A stretch of DNA of 64,000 nt from Octopus sinensis. Lineage: Eukaryota. The stretch lies in contig NC_043005.1 of assembly GCF_006345805.1 (NCBI RefSeq), positions 67,332,001-67,396,000 of the forward strand. Reading direction: 5' to 3'. The translations under genes were made by a program, and so were the position numbers. Of the stretch, positions 10,680-52,988 are shown one piece after another. The notes below the pieces were generated by a model. It was not told where the DNA came from, searched no databases, and saw only the letters and a program-made list of their open reading frames with translations. The stretch's first letter is position 1, and every line of letters begins with the position of its first letter.

Positions 10680-10960
10680 ACTATGTTCCTTTCCTGGGAA
10701 AGGTAGAACCTGACATTTATAGTTTAGCCTAAGACATAAGACTTGCAACAGAATGGACTCTGCTAAAGGTAGATAAGATACTGGTGGAGGTGTTATGCTG
10801 GAAATTAACAGTATCATCCTTAAGTGCAAAGCAGCCAATGTGGGTCTGCACAACTCCTGTTTGTTTAATTCTTCATTTCCCACTCAAGGTCTGTATCGAT
10901 CTGAGAATATAGATAAGGTGCCGAATATGGAACTAGGTGATTGGATGATTGTGGCGTAAA
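10680..10960 (+). mobile_element. Possible decayed LINE APE-endonuclease remnant
   Basis: Order of short motifs PDI..L, GGGV, LYRS, GD resembles APE; very degenerate. Confidence 0.3.
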
Positions 10961-10989
10961 CTTCATACGACTAATAAACGCATACGACA

Positions 10990-12605
10990 AATAAACGCAT
11001 GCAAGATAGCCACAGACATAATAATCAAAGCCCCTACTCTTAATGATCTCAAACTGAGACCTATAATAGCTGGTGCCTCATATGAAACCCAGTGTCTCAG
11101 TAACTTTTTAGATACCCTCTTAAAACCACTCCTCGAGCATGCCAAAAGCTATATAAGAGACGAGCTGGATATGCTCAATCACCTTCCTATAATAATAAAG
11201 AAAAACACCCTACTAGTATCCTTTAATGTAGTCAAATTCTATTCCAATATCCCCCACAACCTAGGAATAGAGGCAATTCAATTCTGGCTGGAGAATTACC
11301 CCCAGTGAACTCCCACATCGCATGAAAACAGAATTCGTGATAGAAGGGCTAAAATTCATCCTGGATAATAACTACTTCGTCTTCAAATACAACTTCTACC
11401 GACAAAAATCGGGGACTGTGATGGGTACCAGAATCGCCCCTCCTTTTCTAACCTAGTCATGGGATGTCTAGAAATTAGTCTTTATCGTAAGGATCTAGAA
11501 AGATACGGCTCCCATTTTCCCTCTACATAGAAAATAACTGAAAGAGACACCTGGATGATTGTTTCATTCTTTGGTATGAACATGTAGAGAAACTTAAAGA
11601 ATTCCAAGCACATTTAAATGAACTTGACGTAAACATTCAATTCACAATGGAATATAGCCAGCAACAACTTGCCTTCCCAGACGTCCTCATTAAGAAATCT
11701 AACAACGTAATTGAAACAAATATATATACTATAAGCCTACAGACTCCAAGCAATATTTACCGTTCCACTCATGCCACTCCAGACACACCAGAATGAATAT
11801 CCCATTGAACCTAGCAAAAAGGATATGTACTATAGTTTCTAATGCAATCACCAGAGACACACGACTACATGGACTAAAGGATACACTCATCACCAGGAAC
11901 TACCCACCCTCACTAATTGACATATGCTTTCAACGTGCCCTTCAACTCAACATCCAGGAACGCAAACATCCCAAATTAAAGAAGGATTTACAACCAAAAG
12001 CCCTACCATACACCTCCACACACAACCCTCTCAACAACGAAGCATTTGACGCCATCCTTCAACACATTCCCCTGCTAAAAAGGGGCCACATAATGAACTT
12101 AGTACTCCAAACAGACACCATCATAAAAAGCAAGAGACAGCCCAAATCTATGAAAAGTCTCCTAACACAAGCCCGAATACGCTCAAGAACACAGAAGCCG
12201 TCAGTAAAAAAATACAGAAGACCCAACTGTGGGATATGCGTCAATTTAGTTGAGCGATGAGAGTTCTCCTTCAAACAGGGACAACGTTTCACAGCGAAAA
12301 GCAACTTCACATGTGCTTCGGAGAATATGATATACGCACTAACCTGCTCTGGCCAAACAAAAAACAGTCTACATAAAAGAATGGCTCTGCACAGATCCCA
12401 GATCAAAATTTCCCCAAAACAGAAAAATAGCATTCAGCCAACACATAGACATTTGCGCCAATAACAAAAATCCAAGCTTCAGAATTTTCCCCCTCTACCA
12501 ATTCAGGGACGATACAAACTGTAGCGAACGAGTAAAGAGACTCGCTTTAGTAAAGAGACTCGCTTTATTACAAAATACAGATACCTTTTGAACGCGTTTA
12601 TAACA
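10990..12605 (+). mobile_element. Penelope-like element, 5'-truncated RT + GIY-YIG pseudogene
   Basis: RPIIAG, SFNVVKFYSNIP, GTVMGT, LDDCF, YYKPTD, NIPLNLAKRIC, CGIC, FTCASENMIY across stops and frameshifts; colinear with 35426-36958. Confidence 0.9.
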
Positions 12606-13631: not shown

Positions 13632-14043
13632 ATATGTGGTGTATATATATATATATATATATATAAAGTTAAAAGTTATCGGTAAACGTTTTTGATTTTC
13701 ACTCTCGATAAATTCATCCCCTTTTGTGTTCCCAGCACTCGGAATCTTAATTTAGGAGCCCTTAATTGTATAACTACATGAATAATATTTTTCTATATGA
13801 ATAATATTTTTGTCTTATGACTAATTCGTCTTTTGTGCTGGGCACCTGGTAGTAAATAATATTACTACCCTTCTTGTTTATATTCGTATATTACATGATG
13901 GATTTATTCGTAAAATTCTTCCCGGCATGCCCTATACTGCCGTGTAAATTTTGCGTCTGCGCAGAGATTTGAAAAGTTAAGATCTGCTAGTAGTCGGGTT
14001 CAACACATGGTCCCACATCGCTGCAGACCTCGATTAAATTTAG

Positions 14044-14123
14044 GCGACTCGCTGATGAAGCTAGCCTTAGCAAACATATTCTGTGTTTTGCTAGAAAGAA
14101 GCAGAAACCGCGGTTCGAGTTGT
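14044..14123 (+). ncRNA. Type I hammerhead ribozyme motif, copy 1
   Basis: Stem I GCGACUCG/CGAGUUGU; CUGAUGA at 14052-14058; stem II GCU/AGC plus inner UAGCAAA/UUUGCUA hairpin; GAAA at 14104-14107; palindromic ACCGCGGU stem III; GUU cut after 14115. The 10.1-11.1 position is A.A rather than a canonical pair. Confidence 0.75.
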
Positions 14124-14497
14124 AAAAGTTATCGGTAAACGTTTTTGATTTTCACTCTCGATAAATTCATCCCCTTTTTGTGTTCCCAGCACTCGGCATC
14201 TTAATTTAGGAGCCCTTAATTGTATAACTACATGAATAATATTTTTCTATATGAATAATATTTTTGTCTTATGACTAATTCGTCTTTTGTGCTGGGCACC
14301 TGGTAGTAAATAATATTACTACCCTTCTTGTTTATATTCGTATATTACATGATGGATTTATTCGTAAAATTCTTCCCGGCATGCCCTATACTGCCGTGTA
14401 AATTTTGCGTCTGCGCAGAGATTTGAAAAGTTAAGATCTGCTAGTAGTCGGGTTCAACACATGGTCCCACATCGCTGCAGACCTCGATTAAATTTAG

Positions 14498-14577
14498 GCG
14501 ACTCGCTGATGAAGCTAGACTTAGCAAACATATTCTGTGTTTTGCTAGAAAGAAGCAGAAACCGCGGTTCGAGTTGT
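14498..14577 (+). ncRNA. Type I hammerhead ribozyme motif, copy 2
   Basis: Same core and stems as copy 1. Confidence 0.75.
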
Positions 14578-14950
14578 AAAAGTTATCGGTAAACGTTTTT
14601 GATTTTCACTCTCGATAAATTCTTCCCCTTTTTGTGTTCCCAGCACTCGGAATCTTAATTTAGGAGCCCTTAATTGTATAACTACATGAATAATATTTTT
14701 CTATATGAATAATATCTTTGTCTTATGACTAATTCGTCTTTTGTGCTGGGCACCTGGTAGTAAATAATATTACTACCCTTCTTGTTTATATTCGTATATT
14801 ACACGATGGATTTAATCGTAAAATTCTTCCCGGCATGCCCTATACTGCCGTGTAAATTTTGCGTCTGCGCAGAGATTTGAAAAGTTAAGATCTGCTAGTA
14901 GTCGGGTTCAACACATGGTCCACATCGCTGCAGACCTCGATTAAATTTAG

Positions 14951-15033
14951 GCGACTCGCTGATGAAGCTAGCCTTAGCAAACATATTCTGTGTTTTGCTA
15001 GAAAGAAGCAGAAAAAAACGCGGTTCGAGTTGT
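14951..15033 (+). ncRNA. Type I hammerhead motif, copy 3, with altered GAAA/stem III
   Basis: gaaaaaaacgcggtt instead of gaaaccgcggtt (mutation or homopolymer assembly error). Confidence 0.55.
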
Positions 15034-15264
15034 AAAAGTTATCGGTAAACGTTTTTGATTTTCACTCTCGATAAATCATCCCCTTTTTGTGTTCCCAGCA
15101 CTCGGCATCTTAATTTAGGAGCCCTTAATTGTATAACTACATGAATAATATTTTTTATATGAATAATATTTTTGTCTTATGACTAATTCGTCTTTTGTGC
15201 TGGGCACCTGGTAGTAAATAATATTACTACCCTTCTTGTTTATATTCGTATATATATATATATA

Positions 15265-16872
15265 CATTTGCGGCCAAAATGTTCAGAACGGCATTGTTTT
15301 CGTTAGAAAAGTAGGTATAAGTTTTTATTAAAGTTGTTCAATATTCTATAATTTTCAAAGACAATAAATACGATATGAATTGGTATTGTCTGAGATTTTG
15401 GTGTAATTGAATGGACAATACAAACGTTATGGATGATATAGTTATTTACTGCAAAACCTATGGCGGCCAAAACGATTAGAACGGTTGAAAAAATAACAAA
15501 ATAATCAAAAAGTGACAGAGAGTGCTGGAATTATTTCATATTTAGTGTGAAGCCCTTTAGCTTTAATCAAAGTTTGACATTTTTGACTGCATGGCGAAAT
15601 TAAATTTTCAATTTTTTACTGGGTGATCTTATCCCGTTCTTCCCGAAGAGCATTTCATAATTGCTCGGTTGTTTTAGGATTTCTGGCTTTCAAACGTTCT
15701 CCTAGAATATTCCACACATTTTCAATAGGATTGAGATCTGGGCTTTGAGCAGGCCAATCCATATCAATAACCTTTTCAGCCTTGAGGAAGTTCAGGACCA
15801 CCTTAGCCTTGTGACATGGGGCATTGTCCTGCATGAATATGGGTGGTCGCATAGTTGAATTTCTCAGCACAGGCAAGACATGATCTTTTACAAGTTGTTT
15901 ATAAACTCCTGCATTTACATTTCCATGTAATCGCACCAAAGGGCCCACAACATCTCCAGATATCATCTCCCAAACCATGACACTTCCTCCACCGAATTTA
16001 ACACTAGTCTTAAGGCATTTAGGTGACAATTTTCCACCTGCGTTTCGACGAACGTACTTTTTCCCATCTGAGTCAAATTACATAGACTTAGATTCATCAC
16101 TGAAATGCACCGTTCTTGAGACCACAACACATGTTCGGAGGCAAAGGTAAGACGACACTTTTTATTCTTGGAGCTGATCAGTGGCTTCACTGCAGGTGCC
16201 CTTGCTTGTAGGTCATGTTTAACTAAAGGACTAGACACAGTTTTTCGAGATAAAGTTTTCTTCAGTACAATGCTCATTTCCCGAGAAACAGCAGCAGCAG
16301 TTTTAAATCTGCCCTTTTTAACCAACTTTACCAAAGCACGATCTTCTCTCTTGGTCGTTTTTCTTGGCCTACCTGTAGACTTTCTTGCTTCACACGAACC
16401 AAAATCATCGTAGACCTTAAGAATACCGTTAACAACACTTTTTGACTTGTTAACAATCTTTGCAATAGACCTAATACTTAAATTATCCTTCTTTCGAAGC
16501 TTAATAATCTGCTGACGAATTGGTAACGGAGTAAGTGGCTTTATATTAACAAAGTACACTGCAGATATTCATATTAATGTTTAGTAAACGAACTGTCACG
16601 TAAACAAATTCAAAACATTAGAGTTCGACGGTTAAATATACTAAAACATGGAGTAAAAGCAACCGTTCTGATCATTTGTCCACCATGGGTTTTGCAGTAA
16701 ATCACTAAATCATGCATAACTTTTTTATTATCCTCTCAAATTACACCAAAATCTCAGACAATAACAAATAATATTGTATTTATTGTGAAAATTATAGAAT
16801 ATAAAACAACTTTGATAAAAACTTATACCTACTTTTCTGACGAAAACATTGCCGTTCTGAACATTTTGGCCG

Positions 16873-23699: not shown

Positions 23700-25435
23700 T
23701 ACTGCTACGAAAAATCGAAGCAAAATCCGCTGTTGGCTATATGAATCGATTGAAATCATATTGGGATGATCTGCATTCAGAATTAAATCATTTTACTGCG
23801 AAGAAACTATGCCAACAAGCAAAATTGGTAGAACATAGACAGAAGGTTAGTGACTGTAACTTTATTAAAATATCGAAAATTAAAATTCTTTCCAACACTA
23901 TAAACAAAAATGATAACGTGCATTATATAAGACTACTACGTCGTTTCGCAGCTAGCGACATTCCAACAGATTTCATACTGCCTACCCGCGAAACTACATT
24001 ACTAGCCCAAGCAACTGACCACTGTCTACCTGCTACGACTGTAGGCACAATCACAACGGTTATTGTAGTGGTAATGGTAGTCCGGATTATATGCCGTTGA
24101 AATGTGCCCTTACTGAAATTTCCCGAGAAAAAAAAAATTTGGCTTTGAAGTACTCCCTCGAGGAGAGAGTATTCTCTACCAAAGTAAGTAAGTAAAAACA
24201 AAACACCAGATACAGTATTAAAAGCGGTTAACGAAATTGGTGATGAGTATTTACAACAGTGTGATGAACCCACATGCTGGCAGATTAAGGCATGTCTATA
24301 TGCTCTGGCTACCACTGTAAAGCAATGCTTAAATGATATTCAGAAAGTAAGCAAAACCGAAATAGCAAAGAAAGACTCACGTTAAGGAAGTCTAAGGATA
24401 TCTCACTGGTTCACAAAAATACCAATATAACACAGTTCTTTGTGGATGGCTTATAACTTTTTGCAAAGTATATGCATGAGATGAAAAAGATCCTTGACCT
24501 AGTTACAACATTCTCCAAGGTTGGTCAGGATAAATGGTGTATGGTTGTGAAAAGGAGGAAAACTATAAACAAGACTAGTAGCGTCTACATCAATGATTTT
24601 ACTGTTTTCCCTGTATCTGAACGGTAATGTTACAGGTACGTAGGGTTGGATGAAAATATATCTTACAATGCCACCTGTGAAAAAACACGTGTCACTAAAA
24701 AATATTACAGCCGAATAAAGAAAATTTGGACCTCAGAGCTCTCTGCACTCAATAAAACAGCAGTCCACAATGCGTTTGCAGTGCCAGTACTCATACCAAC
24801 ATTTGGATTGCTTGATTGGACGCTTGATGAGATCCGAACCATTGATGTGAAAACCCGAAAAATACTAACAAACACACATAATATCCACATAAACAGTGAC
24901 GTAGACAGTCCCTACCTAAAACGAAAACAAGGCGGCAGAGGCTTAACGTCGATCCAAAATGCCTTTGAATGTCGCATCATATCCCTTCAGCAACATGTTA
25001 ACATAAAGCGGAAGATCAGTGAAAAAGAGAACACCTATGCTGACCTATTGAGTAATCTGCAGTTACTTTATCCAGATTGCATGTTCAGGTTTACACCTGT
25101 AAATATTGGGGTACTACTATATGTAACACACTGCCTAAATACCAATCTTAGGAAATTAGGCTTCTCAAATCTAGAAATAAGAAAGCTAATTCGAAGACTA
25201 CAGATACAATCCATCACTGGCACTGTAAAAATCTGTATAACTTTCCACAAGTTTATCATTTAAATGTGTATGAGCATGTCTAGATATGCAAGTATATGCA
25301 TTAGAATACATACATAAAACATAAAAATCTGCACATACATACAAACAACAATACCCTGCTGTTGATGTTGAAATTCCACTGAAAGTTAGAAACCAGATCT
25401 TTGTCTCTGGCAAGAAATCTTGAAATAAAATACAT
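23700..25435 (+). mobile_element. Internally deleted R4/Dong-like LINE
   Basis: N-terminal [13 protein letters not shown] remnants FFVDG and YRYVG, YLKRKQGGRGL, fused to the RLE C-terminus shared with 23130-23390; followed by (TAGA)n. Confidence 0.82.
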
Positions 25436-35241: not shown

Positions 35242-35341
<100 letters not shown>

Positions 35342-35425
35342 GAAAATTGGTTTGTGAAAGCACGTGGTTGAATATATAGAAAATAGTAAAAAGTGAAAAA
35401 CTACAGAAGGCTTAAAGGTTAAAAA

Positions 35426-36958
35426 ATGAAACCCTTCCTTAAACATATCGATAGCCATATCAGAGATGACTTAGATATGTTAAACCACCTTCCAAAAAAA
35501 GCCAAGGAAGAAACAATCCTGGTATCATTTGATGTAGTTTACTTATATACCAGTATACCTCATAATTATGGACTAGAGGCAATACAGTTCTGGCTGGACC
35601 GATTTCCGGAAGAAATACCAAAAAGGATCAGTACAGAATTCATTACTAAATCAATTGAATTCATCCTACATAATAACCACTTCATGTTTGACAATACATT
35701 TTACCGTCAAAAATCCGGAATTGCCATGGGTACAAGGGCAGCACCAGTCATTGTGAACCTAACAATGGGCTACATGGAAATAATCATTTACCAGGAATCT
35801 TTATCAATCTTTGGAAACCCCCTTTCTCAATACATAAAAGAGAATTGGAAACGATTCTTAGACGATTGCTTTATACTCTGGAATGAAAACACAGATAAAC
35901 TCCTAAAATTTAAAAACCTATTGAACAGCATAAACCCAAATATACAGTTCACAATGGAATACAACCAAAAGGAGCTCCCGTTCTTGGATATACTAATTAA
36001 AAAAATTAACCTTAAAATAGAAACAGACATTTTTTACAAAGCCACAGACGCCAAACAATACCTTCTTTTTAATTCATGCCACCCAAGACACACTAAAACA
36101 AACATCCCCTTCAACCTTGCAAGAAGGATATGCACAATAGTGTCAGAACAAAATACCAGGAACTTTAGACTGCAAGAACTCAAAAACACCCTAATTGACA
36201 GACATTACCCAACTCAACTCATAGAGGATGGGATCAAACGTGCAACAGAAATCAACATAGAAACTTTAAGAAAAGTTCAACACAACAACACACCTTCCCC
36301 GATAATACTACCTTACATATCTACATACAACCCCAGAAACAAAGAAGCCTTCACCATCATCACCCAGAATTTACCAATACTTCATAAGGACCCCAAATTA
36401 AAGGAAATTCTAAACATACACCAAATCATTAAAAGCTACTAACAACCTAAATCACTTAAAAAGATTCTCACAAAGGCAAAAATGTTTTCTGAAATTACGG
36501 ATGCAAAAGTAAAAAAATGTGGTAGATCGAACTGTGCAACATGTCCAAACCTGCTAGAAGGATCAGTATTCCTCTTTAAAGAGGGACAGAAATTCAAGAT
36601 CAAATCAAACTTTACTTGTGCCTCTGAAAACATAATTTATGTCATAAAATGCTCGGGCGGCCACCAAGACTACGTGGGATCCACGGGACTATCACTCAGA
36701 CGTAGATGTACACTGCATCGACAACAGATTGCATTCCCAGAATACAGAATGATACCTTTTAGTGAGCACATTGAGAAATGCGCAAAGCAACTACTACCAC
36801 AATTTTTAATCTTTCCATTTTACCAATATGCTATCGGATCAACACAAATTAGACTAAACAAGGAAACATTCTTCATTGAAAAGTACAAGCCCAGACTTAA
36901 CCATGCCAACATACTGATACAGAGAAATTCACACCAAGGGAAAAGAAAACAAATTTAG
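35426..36958 (+). pseudogene. PLE reverse transcriptase + Cys linker + GIY-YIG endonuclease, one in-frame stop at 36440-36442
   Basis: SFDVVYLYTSIP, QKSGIAMG, RFLDDCF, LPFLD, FYKATD; CGRSNCATC linker; NIIYVIKC...DYVGST...R...H; the two ORFs share one frame. Confidence 0.92.
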
Positions 36959-37074
36959 AAAAAAATTTTAAGCGATTATCTCCCTTACACCGGAAAAAAT
37001 CACTCATTACCTCCCCATATTTAGAACTCTTTTAAACATAACGAAAACTCTATTCAACATAAACATAACGTCGT

Positions 37075-37113
37075 AAGAAATTTGAAAAGCTAAACGCGAA
37101 ACCGGTCTTTCTT
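37075..37113 (+). ncRNA. Minimal hammerhead-like motif with UUGAAAA core in the PLE 3' region
   Basis: AAGAAA/UUUCUU stem I (one extra U), UUGAAAA, GC-UAAAC-GC, GAAA, ACCGGU palindrome, GUC. Confidence 0.5.
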
Positions 37114-37227
37114 CTAAATTATGTCATTGTAAGGAAAAATTTTTTTAATATTCTTCAGACATATTGACGCAAATATATATATTTTTTAACCTTTAAGCCT
37201 TCTGTAGTTTTTCACTTTTTACTATTT

Positions 37228-37308
<81 letters not shown>

Positions 37309-42576: not shown

Positions 42577-42876
42577 AAATGTTCTGCTGCTTACCCTTGT
42601 AATGTTAAATACCCGAGGAAAAAGAAACAAATATAATCATAAAAATGTTGTTTTCTGCGATTCTCAGTCAAAAATAGCCAAATAAATGAGAAATAAATTC
42701 TATAAAACAATTGCATTGACGATAATTTGGGGAATGGTGAAATATTACGGAATTACAAAATGCGCAGCGCATGAAATGTGAAATCATTTCCACAAATAAA
42801 TTTGTACGTATGTATACATATGTGTGTGTTTGTATATATGTATATACATATATATATATATATTTTTTTTTTTTTT

Positions 42877-43479
42877 TATATTATATAGAGGGCATTATTA
42901 CACATAAATGCCGCACGCTAGGAGGGACTTTTAAAGTCATAACTATCAAATATAAACAAATCGTACCGAATGCAATTCTCGAAGCGAGTCATTTAAAAAC
43001 AGAATTTAGCTACAGATCACCTGTGATTTCGCAATCAACGCAGTATCTGCGTCCCTTGCTCGTCAGTGAAGCGAATTCAAGATATATCATGAATGAACAA
43101 AATCAACATACCAGACAGAGAACCGTCGCATCCATCGTAGCATATGGAACTGTTCACCCCTCATACATCTATGTAAATGGCGGGCTTTTTCGAATTGCAT
43201 TTCGCTAACAACGTGCTTCTTCGGAACAAATTTCAAAAATAGGATAACATCTTAATAAGAAATGATCAAGTAGTTAGCGTGAAAAACCTCATAAGAGAAA
43301 AAAATCTGTAAATTTTTTCACTTGAAAATATTTATCTATATTATATAGAGGGCATTATTACACATAAATGCCACACGCTAGGAGGGACTTTTAAAGTCAT
43401 AACTACCAAATATAAACAAATGGTACCGAATGCAATTCTCAAAGCGAGTCATTTAAAATCAGAATTTAGCTACAGATCA
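42877..43479 (-). repeat. 1.3 tandem copies of a 460-bp HHR-containing unit (retrozyme/pLTR-like)
   Basis: 42877-43019 is repeated at 43337-43479; flanked by (TA)n. Confidence 0.9.
43002..43078 (-). ncRNA. Type I hammerhead ribozyme, canonical core
   Basis: Minus strand: GAAUUCGCUUCA CUGACGA GCAA GGG ACGCAG AUA CUGCGU UGA UUGC GAAA UCAC AG GUGA UC UGUAGCUAAAUUC; AUC cut between 43015 and 43014. Confidence 0.85.
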
Positions 43480-43534
43480 TATATATATATATATGCATGT
43501 ATGTATGTATTATGTATGTATACATACATACATA

Positions 43535-48839: not shown

Positions 48840-49720
48840 ATGAGTATTGCTAAGAGGTCCATAGGCTGACCGAGATACTCTCATGGAATGTAACCAGATG
48901 AGGTTTATTTTTCGATGTAGTCTCAGTTGCGGTCCGCACATTTCTTCCATCGATGTAATCAGGAGAATAGGTAGGGTGATCAACCAGTTCAAGCCACAGC
49001 CACACACATTGTCTGCTGGAGCATTGTCCTGATGAGACAAGACACCTTACGTCAGTCTTCCAGGGCATTTGGTCTTCATAGCCTTTCATAGCTGCCTCGG
49101 CCATAAACACAATGCCTTTTGCATCCCAGAAAACTGAAGCCTTCAACTTTCCTGCAGATGAAACGACCTTGGTCTTCTTTGCTGCAGGTGAGGAGATGTG
49201 TTTCCACTGCAAAGATTGTCTCTTTGTCTTTGGCTGAAAGTGAAGAAGCCAACTAATCCTGTGGAGGGAACATTTATAGTCAGCAGCTGTCATCCATCAT
49301 CATATGGTGGACGCGTTTAATGTTTTTTCCTCGCTGGTGGCAGTTGCAGGACATCAAGCCGTTGGATCGTATCGATACTCTTCCTTTCCTTCCTCGATTC
49401 AGTAGCCCACTTTTGTGCAGTTGATAAAGCTGGGACGTCATCTCCTAATGCAGCAAGAGAGTCAGCATGAATATCATTGGTGTTTAAACCTTTTTTTCTG
49501 AAAGTACATGATAACACCACAATGCCAAATTGTGTCAGCAATCAAGAAGAGTCGCTACCAGTTACATTTGAAATCTTCTTTGGATCGGCACATATAAGTT
49601 TACCTTGAAAGAAACAATGCAGTTATTAATAGGAATATTTGAAATTAATACTTGCAAGAATTCATAGGACCAACGTAGTTCCTTCATAGTCAGGCTCTGA
49701 ACTTTTCAGCTCACCCTCGT
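48840..49720 (-). mobile_element. Mariner-type transposon relic, internally deleted
   Basis: HTH (IHADSLAALGDDVPALSTAQKW), KRQSLQWKH, SAGKLKASVFWDAKG, HQDNAPA, HPTYSPD; terminal acgagggtgagctgaaaagttc. Confidence 0.85.
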
Positions 49721-52396: not shown

Positions 52397-52988
52397 TGAA
52401 GTGGAGTGTATGTTAAGCTAATTGTTCAAGGCACGATGCTTATCGTAATCATTTGTAAGAGTAAAAAGTATGTTTCTGCCAGTGCTTACATTTATAGGAT
52501 TTCTCTATGAGTGTGTTTACAAGGGGAACCTTAGAGAAGAGGATATGGAAGAGCTCAGAGTTGCAAATGTTACAAAAACTCCTGACATTATCAAAAGGAA
52601 AGGATACAGACAGTATGAACCAATCTAACTTGAAATCTATATTGTTGTCTTTGAGACGCCAAACTAATTTACTTAGTCCTGTACTATATCGTATTTTACT
52701 ATCCCTGAATGTTGAATAATGTTTTGAAATTCTCTTGGATAACTGGGAAGAGGACGCTCCTATATAGAAGAAAACATGTATCCTTTCCTTTTGATAAGGG
52801 CAGGAGTTTTTGTAACATTTGCAACTCTGAGCTCTTCCATATCCTCTTCTCTAAGGTTCCCCTTGTAAACACACTCATAGAGAAATCCTATAAATGTAAG
52901 CACTGGCAGAAACATACATTTTACTCTTACAAATGATTACGATAGGCATCGCGCTTTGAACAATTAGCTTAACATACACTCCACTTCA
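52397..52988. repeat. ~210-bp near-perfect inverted repeat (52397-52608 / 52777-52988)
   Basis: The arms are visibly reverse complementary; the ORF track shows mirrored peptides. Confidence 0.92.

What the first reader, a model, noticed from the sequence alone, without database searches (positions are those of the whole stretch)
42877..43479. Second, unrelated 460-bp HHR unit on the minus strand
Seen: a canonical CUGACGA/GAAA hammerhead with a G-C closed stem II at 43002-43078 inside a 460-bp unit present 1.3 times between TA tracts. It shows no obvious sequence similarity to the 454-bp family but has almost the same unit length and layout. Inferred: an independent retrozyme-like family, suggesting a shared size constraint.
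Basis: partly seen in the sequence, partly recalled or inferred. Interest (0 to 1): 0.8.

Follow-up and report, generated by a model that had tools for sequence, protein, structure and literature searches.

The report
Self-cutting RNA repeat riding Penelope retrotransposons
This is one copy of a large family of short, protein-free repeats that carry a predicted self-cutting RNA (a hammerhead); their insertion scars show the two-start-site pattern of Penelope-like retrotransposons, which likely copy them from RNA circles, and that makes the open question of how such animal RNAs spread testable.

Summary
In detail: a type I hammerhead on the minus strand (predicted cut 43015/43014) in a 460-bp unit present 1.3 times between TA tracts. 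The family is large (386 and 1,995 exact motif hits), its stems covary, and a young subfamily forms arrays of up to 15 units. Copies are 5'-truncated, read across the cut site, sit in (TA)n and end at two fixed sites about 100 nt apart; 64 of 65 classifiable two-armed inverted insertions use one site each. That is the Penelope-like element (PLE) 'tail' signature, so this is an animal non-LTR retrozyme, likely moved by a PLE. 'Independent, unrelated' is doubtful: a structure model of this family's end domain picks out the 454-bp family in register (weak, E 0.02-0.1) and found a third hammerhead family (477 bp). Unit size runs 452-495 bp here, so 454 versus 460 is partly chance. This locus has one whole ribozyme with a stem I mismatch and is likely a spent copy. 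Cleavage, circles and the driving PLE are not shown; a young Neptune-type family, with a copy in this window, is the candidate.

The parts
42877..43479 (-). Whole insertion, about 1.3 units; RNA sense is the minus strand
43015..43474 (-). One unit from predicted cut site to predicted cut site (460 nt; the predicted RNA circle)
43001..43078 (-). Type I hammerhead: CUGACGA 43066-43060, stem II 43059-43031, GAAA 43030-43027, stem III 43027-43016, C17 at 43015, predicted cut 43015/43014; U-U mismatch in stem I of this copy
43475..43479 (-). 5' end of the insertion, 4-5 bases beyond the second predicted cut site (43475/43474); no second whole ribozyme
43272..43385 (-). End domain: closing stem enclosing a covarying hairpin (43372-43351) and the short (S) end site
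43328..43335 (-). S end site in the first unit (unit position about 140-147); the same site in the second unit, 42877-42880, is this insertion's 3' end
43225..43232 (-). L end site (unit position about 245-247), about 100 nt past S; not used by this single-armed insertion
42863..42877 (-). A15 run after the 3' end; found after 1 of 111 S ends (this one), so not a family poly(A) tail
42835..42862 (.). (TA)n target tract, left side
43480..43494 (.). (TA)n target tract, right side
13728..15205 (+). Related, not part of this insertion: the four end domains of the 454-bp family (13728-13843, 14182-14297, 14636-14751, 15091-15205) matched by the model built from this family
35339..37229 (+). Candidate driver family, not part of this insertion: 5'-truncated Neptune-type PLE (RT, CxxC linker, GIY-YIG; one in-frame stop), two-armed with one L and one S end, in (TA)n

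Best explanation
The locus is a 5'-truncated copy of a protein-free hammerhead repeat family (an animal non-LTR retrozyme) inserted in a TA microsatellite, likely written in by the reverse transcriptase and endonuclease of a Penelope-like element from a predicted circular RNA. Steps: (1) tandem arrays would be transcribed and cut by the hammerhead into unit-length RNA, then ligated to circles (inferred from published retrozymes); (2) a PLE protein would bind the structured end domain and nick (TA)n DNA (target bias shown; binding inferred); (3) copying starts inside the RNA at one of two fixed sites, S or L, about 100 nt apart (end positions shown), and runs on across the cut/ligation junction, 0 to 14 times (shown); (4) when both DNA strands are primed, one uses S and the other L, giving head-to-head arms with the 100-nt tail on one arm only (pattern shown; two-primer mechanism inferred). 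This copy started at S, crossed the junction twice and stopped 4-5 bases past it; with one whole ribozyme it is likely a spent copy.
For: Core and stems: 93% of 857 cells paired, 43 cells changed on both sides against 21 in shuffles, 0 of 500 shuffles as high; slid controls 27-39% paired; CUGANGA intact in 74 of 78 copies that reach it, in a set chosen by an exact 3' half; the young subfamily has differently lettered but paired stems I and II around the same core. Ends: in 167 loci, 94 two-armed junctions, 67 with both ends at S or L: 66 L+S, 1 S+S, 0 L+L, or 64 of 65 after dropping two duplicated rows (binomial about 1e-18). (TA)3 follows 222 of 254 S/L ends against 214 of 2,318 control places. 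24 of 40 loci chosen by the 3' motif cross the cut site; of 27 5' ends within -12..+25 of it only one lies at it, ambiguously (counted by eye after setting 13 rows aside). Arrays are clonal: median 0 substitutions within an arm, 12 between loci (45 units, 11 loci), and both arms share one haplotype in 3 of 3 two-armed arrays. The same L+S rule holds in PLEs of this genome (5 L+S, 1 L+L among 30 loci). PMC11167929 shows in vitro that a PLE protein nicks and extends both strands and starts at two internal RNA sites that bound the genomic tail.
Against: No cleavage or circle was observed. No autonomous PLE with terminal sequence homologous to the unit was found (BLAST on 50 and 30 PLE loci; model search on 46 and 24 loci), so the driver is not identified. 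The tail is about 100 nt, not the 30-40 nt described for PLEs. PMC11167929 found hammerhead cleavage dispensable and uncut RNA the main substrate for its PLE, and 8 of 9 Xenopus retrozyme dimers did not cleave in vitro. 27 of 94 junctions had one end outside both classes. Clonal arrays can also come from a uniform donor array or from unequal crossing-over; two loci share one haplotype. Rfam does not recognise this hammerhead.
Confidence: 0.72

Rival explanations
1. Same PLE-driven insertion, but the template is an uncut linear multimer read from tandem arrays; the hammerhead is kept for another reason and circles play no part in spreading.
For: Reading across the cut site and the lack of 5' ends at it fit uncut RNA equally well; uncut RNA was the main substrate for the anole PLE in vitro (PMC11167929); loci L225 and L232 share a haplotype, as donor and daughter would.
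Against: Clonal arms of up to 15 units, and the same haplotype on both arms, need a donor at least as long and as uniform; compensatory changes keep the hammerhead across subfamilies 68-98% alike.
Confidence: 0.18
2. The unit is the terminal repeat (pLTR) of an autonomous PLE that my searches missed; these are its 5'-truncated ends.
For: All PLE insertion hallmarks are present; L002 has a PLE ORF upstream in the same orientation.
Against: The unit closes on itself: arrays of up to 15 units carry no ORF; upstream flanks of 80 loci gave no PLE ORF joined to the unit; in L002 an 85-bp piece of a mariner-like transposon lies between the PLE and the unit, and none of 29 other copies of that PLE continues into the unit.
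Confidence: 0.06
3. One reading: this and the 454-bp family arose independently and converged on one size and layout.
For: This copy shows no significant alignment to the 454-bp unit (z -0.4 to -0.2); only 1 of 9 reference units reaches z above 3 and its 98%-identical neighbour does not; a profile search found nothing; model E-values are weak and a flank with no hammerhead seen scored 22.2 bits; the reciprocal hit ranks behind two (TA)n hits.
Against: The model built without any 454-family sequence ranks its four window units next after its own two (21.7-25.5 bits, background at most 17.9), on the sense strand and with S ends aligned; it also matches the older 454-type domain in the loci; the reciprocal model returns exactly 43272-43385 (E 0.032); its top hit led blind to a third hammerhead family. 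Convergence on a protein-binding signal remains possible, but then the shared thing is the signal, not the size.
Confidence: 0.25
4. A satellite DNA spread by recombination or DNA rolling-circle copying, the hammerhead being incidental.
For: Tandem arrays with uniform units exist.
Against: Fixed 3' ends, ragged 5' ends, head-to-head arms with the one-tail rule and the (TA)n bias are retrotransposition scars; most loci hold fewer than two units.
Confidence: 0.03

Closest known systems
Animal non-LTR retrozymes (Cervera and de la Pena 2020, PMC7229834; parts 2-4 of 6 read, supplement not read)
   Same: Short AT-rich tandem repeats, one type I hammerhead per unit, no protein; PLEs proposed as drivers and rolling-circle reverse transcription proposed as the route.
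   Different: Unit 452-495 bp is above their 150-450 bp; their circles and cleavage were measured, ours are not; the main text has no mention of tails, inverted arms or microsatellite targets.
Vertebrate retrozymes as non-autonomous PLE derivatives (Li, Clavereau, Pollet, bioRxiv 10.64898/2026.07.22.740005; parts 1-3 of 5 read)
   Same: Same class; unit lengths 51-972 bp; monomers, dimers and multimers; co-occurrence with PLEs.
   Different: Their link rests on co-occurrence and pLTR homology; here no pLTR homologue was found, and the link rests on insertion anatomy, which their text does not treat. This locus fails their 'active' test of two whole ribozymes.
EN+ Penelope-like elements, Neptune/Poseidon (Craig 2021 PMC8557442, passages; PMC3846280, passages; Frangieh 2024 PMC11167929, parts 1-2 of 4)
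   Same: 5' truncation, partial tandems, an inverted 5' arm, a tail on one end only, AT/microsatellite targets, two internal start sites.
   Different: No ORF; a full-size hammerhead with long stem II rather than a minimal one; tail about 100 nt rather than 30-40; both arms can be long multimers.
The 454-bp family and a third, 477-bp family in G000
   Same: Type I hammerhead about 110-145 nt upstream of S, an L end about 95-115 nt further, (TA)n targets, L+S arms (14 of 14 two-armed loci in the third family, one arm L by the choice of query), shared end domain.
   Different: Little or no pairwise sequence similarity (454-bp family) or weak similarity (third family, z 2.6-3.8 against 5 of 9 references); different stems II and III.

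Membership tests
Type I hammerhead ribozyme | Core C3-U4-G5-A6-N7-G8-A9, G12-A13-A14-A15.1, U16.1, H17 | tested here: met
   All present; N7 and H17 vary as expected across 33 copies
Type I hammerhead ribozyme | Three stems, stem I open-ended, supported by covariation | tested here: met
   this copy has a U-U mismatch where close copies have G-U, A-U, G-C or U-G
Type I hammerhead ribozyme | Match to an Rfam hammerhead model | tested here: not met
   No hammerhead family at E up to 10 on 42870-43485; none among the 150 listed rows for the window, which also holds the 454-bp family's motifs
Type I hammerhead ribozyme | Loop 1-loop 2 tertiary contacts | not tested
   No analysis run
Type I hammerhead ribozyme | Self-cleavage | not testable with these tools
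   Needs an in vitro assay
Animal non-LTR retrozyme | Tandem units each with a type I hammerhead (family level) | tested here: met
   Arrays of up to 15 units with intact cores; dimers in older subfamilies
Animal non-LTR retrozyme | Two whole ribozymes at the locus ('active' by Li et al.) | tested here: not met
   One whole ribozyme plus 4-5 bases of a second; lowers 'active copy', not family membership
Animal non-LTR retrozyme | Unit of a few hundred bases, GC under 50%, no protein gene | tested here: met
   452-495 bp; GC 0.32-0.36 in the two 1-kb bins; the two stop-free frames of 120 aa or more that touch it run into flanking microsatellite
Animal non-LTR retrozyme | Expressed as linear and circular monomer RNA | not testable with these tools
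   No run on record as RNA holds it; only contigs available
PLE-mobilised element | Fixed 3' ends, 5' truncation, partial tandems, head-to-head inverted arm | tested here: met
PLE-mobilised element | Tail on one arm only | tested here: met
   64 of 65 classifiable two-armed loci; tail length about 100 nt differs from the published 30-40
PLE-mobilised element | Microsatellite/AT target bias | tested here: met
   222 of 254 against 214 of 2,318
PLE-mobilised element | Terminal sequence homologous to an autonomous PLE | tested here: inconclusive
   None in the PLE loci examined, which are a small part of 3,219 and 19,641 candidates; an older PLE family ends in nearly the same 15 bases as the S site
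Autonomous PLE | RT plus GIY-YIG ORF | tested here: not met
   No ORF in units or arrays

The most novel reading that the evidence does not exclude
Three hammerhead repeat families of 443-495 nt in one animal genome descend from one RNA circle and share a structured end domain that docks a PLE protein dimer; its two subunits prime the two nicked strands at sites about 100 nt apart on one circle and both run round it, writing two-armed multimeric arrays. This would be direct genomic evidence, and a base-level recipe for a test, that animal retrozyme circles are copied by PLE enzymes through a hairpin-defined start signal.
Probability: 0.3. Interest if true: 0.75.

Novelty: new member of a known kind. 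Interest (0 to 1): 0.52.

Why it matters
Animal retrozymes are a known class, and PLEs are their proposed drivers, but in the papers I read that link rests on shared ribozymes, co-occurrence and terminal-repeat homology. Here the insertions themselves carry the PLE two-start-site scar, almost without exception, with predicted start sites at base level, a covarying hairpin in front of one of them, clonal two-armed arrays that fit copying round a circle, and a young PLE family with many open ORFs in the same genome. That turns 'who moves retrozymes, and from circles or linear RNA?' into one in vitro experiment. I found no paper giving this anatomy for retrozymes (searches; term look-ups); supplements were not read and most subscription papers are not in the library. 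The single locus itself is an ordinary, likely inactive copy.

Tried and rejected
Rfam: no hammerhead hit; only microsatellite-driven microRNA matches. RNA evidence: no RNA holder listed; contigs from three runs guessed to be RNA and one unlabelled run cover the element in 17-22 of 30 bins, but contigs show no ends, strand or level, so this is not used for or against. Poly(A)-tailed SINE: rejected, the A run is in 1 of 111 S ends. 5' ends piling up at the cut, as a self-cleaved linear monomer would give: not seen. L002 as proof of the partner: a PLE piece, an 85-bp mariner-like piece and the unit lie joined in one TA tract on a 21-kb contig; one locus, could be template switching, nested insertion or misassembly; kept as a hint only. 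Terminal homology to PLEs: none; the hits in L272 and L306 are separate retrozyme copies beside the PLE. Pairwise and profile tests of homology to the 454-bp unit: negative or fragile. Earlier findings of the scan: none by place, words or sequence. Target-site duplication: cannot be read inside (TA)n.

Full report
Observation. The minus strand at 43078-43001 reads as a type I hammerhead: CUGACGA at 43066-43060, a stem II of 4 pairs, an internal loop and a 7-pair hairpin closed by G10.1-C11.1, GAAA at 43030-43027, a 4-pair stem III and AUC, with the predicted cut at 43015/43014. The unit is 460 bp and the repeated 140 bp match at 135 places. The 5' end lies 4-5 bases beyond the second cut site, so the locus has one whole ribozyme. 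This copy's lowest-energy fold is not the catalytic one (-22.4 against -18.2 kcal/mol; z -1.13), and one stem I pair is U-U where eight close copies have a standard pair. Rfam returns no hammerhead.

The family. G000 (2.72 Gb) gave 2,752 first-look candidates for the element, 386 exact hits to the core's 3' half and 1,995 to a 24-base motif near the 3' end, with 0 for both reversed controls. On 33 copies the stems hold in 93% of 857 cells, with 43 cells changed on both sides (shuffles 21; 0 of 500 as high; slid controls 27-39% paired); 6 pairs change on both sides, which 43 of 500 shuffles reach, so that measure alone is weak, and relatedness can inflate the others. Nine natural units are 68-98% alike and 460-495 bp long, and L002 has 452. 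A young subfamily forms arrays of up to 15 units with re-lettered but paired stems round the same core.

Insertion anatomy. I mapped 167 loci: 47 best DNA matches after removing 13 repeats of the same place, 80 taken in genome order from the core pattern and 40 from the 3' motif. 3' ends fall at two sites, S (unit position about 147) and L (about 247), followed by (TA)3 in 222 of 254 cases against 214 of 2,318 control places. 5' ends are ragged. There are 94 head-to-head two-armed junctions; 27 have one end outside both classes; of the other 67, 66 are L+S, 1 S+S and 0 L+L, or 64 of 65 after dropping two locally duplicated rows. Single arms use either site (61 S, 34 L, 5 other). Craig et al. 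(PMC8557442, passages) and PMC3846280 (passages) describe partial tandems, an inverted 5' copy and a 30-40 bp tail on one end as PLE hallmarks; Frangieh et al. (PMC11167929, parts 1-2 of 4) show the tail is the stretch between two internal start sites and that both strands are nicked and extended. The family therefore carries the PLE scar, with a longer tail.

Template. 24 of the 40 loci chosen by the 3' motif cross the cut site, up to 14 times, and 5' ends do not gather at it (1 ambiguous case of 27 within -12..+25, counted by eye), so the template was not a cut linear monomer. Units within an arm differ by a median of 0 substitutions, between loci by 12; both arms share a haplotype in L220, L244 and L253. 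That fits copying round one circle, as proposed by Cervera and de la Pena (PMC7229834, parts 2-4 of 6), but a uniform uncut multimer fits too.

Relation to the 454-bp family. Pairwise tests on this copy are negative and a profile finds nothing. But the 454-bp family also has two ends, about 110 and 225 nt after its cut, with S and L on opposite arms in L110, L113, L114, L116 and L137. S in our family follows a hairpin with compensatory changes (C-G 20, U-A 7; U-A 15, C-G 9) inside a closing stem. A covariance model of that domain alone ranks the four 454-bp units of the window directly after its own two copies, at E 0.023-0.12, sense strand, S on S; I had noticed the likeness by eye before building the model, but no 454-type sequence went into it. 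The reciprocal model returns 43272-43385 at E 0.032, behind two (TA)n hits. One flank without a visible hammerhead scored 22.2 bits, so single hits of this size are not proof. The best hit (26.2 bits) proved to be a third family: 2,318 candidates, a 477-nt unit, a type I hammerhead, L+S in 14 of 14 two-armed loci, and weak alignment to ours. I read this as a shared end domain, more likely by descent than convergence; it is not proven.

Driver. The window holds a Neptune-type PLE at 35339-37229 (RT, CxxC linker, GIY-YIG; both Pfam scores are just under the curated cut-offs; clade named from the linker described). Its family is young, with copies 86-97% identical in protein, many with open frames of about 800 aa, and 19,641 candidates; it targets (TA)n and shows 5 L+S and 1 L+L two-ended loci among 30. 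It shares no clear terminal sequence with the unit. An older PLE family ends in nearly the same 15 bases as S and is joined to the unit, through a mariner-like piece, at one locus (L002). The driver is therefore likely a PLE but is not identified.

Verdict. A new member of the animal non-LTR retrozymes, whose membership tests are met at family level except for untestable cleavage and circles; the locus itself fails the two-ribozyme test of Li et al. (bioRxiv 10.64898/2026.07.22.740005, parts 1-3 of 5). What is new, as far as my searches reach, is the insertion-level PLE signature in a retrozyme and the end domain shared by three families. Supplements of these papers were not read and could list such families. 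Interest 0.52.

Noticed in passing
window 35339-37229 (+): Two-armed, 5'-truncated copy of a young, very abundant Neptune-type PLE family with many open ORFs; its hammerhead-like motif has U in place of C3 and a changed core in all listed copies.
   Followed up: partly
window 10950-12600 (+): Older, broken PLE copy of similar type (RT, CxxC linker, GIY-YIG remnants) upstream of the 454-bp array.
   Followed up: no
L358:797-990, L394; G000: Third hammerhead repeat family, 477-nt unit, 2,318 candidates, same end layout; one stretch resembles the reverse complement of a stretch in the young subfamily of this family (seen by eye).
   Followed up: partly
L002:131-2098 (G000:C1188): Patchwork in one TA tract: inverted PLE tail, truncated PLE ORF and 3' region, 85 bp of a mariner-like transposon, then 1.4 retrozyme units.
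   Followed up: yes
window 13670-15253 and loci L108-L137, L338-L367: The 454-bp family is young (mostly 93-99% to the window copy), forms long arrays and has an older subfamily about 80-88% alike.
   Followed up: partly
window 43475-43479 (-): The few bases kept upstream of the second cut site are the 3' strand of stem III plus C17, so the downstream ribozyme could in principle pair with and cut that site too; speculative.
   Followed up: no
window 15655-16568 (-) and 48850-49296 (-): Tc1-like and mariner-like transposase remnants.
   Followed up: partly
window 52449-52850 (-), 24628-25263 (+); L004:637-1107 (-): Frames that look from recall like other retroelement pieces (GIY-YIG-like, LINE-like, PLE-like); no Pfam match.
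   Followed up: no
L324:3229-3338: Stretch with a closing stem like this family's end domain but no inner hairpin or hammerhead seen; treated as background.
   Followed up: partly
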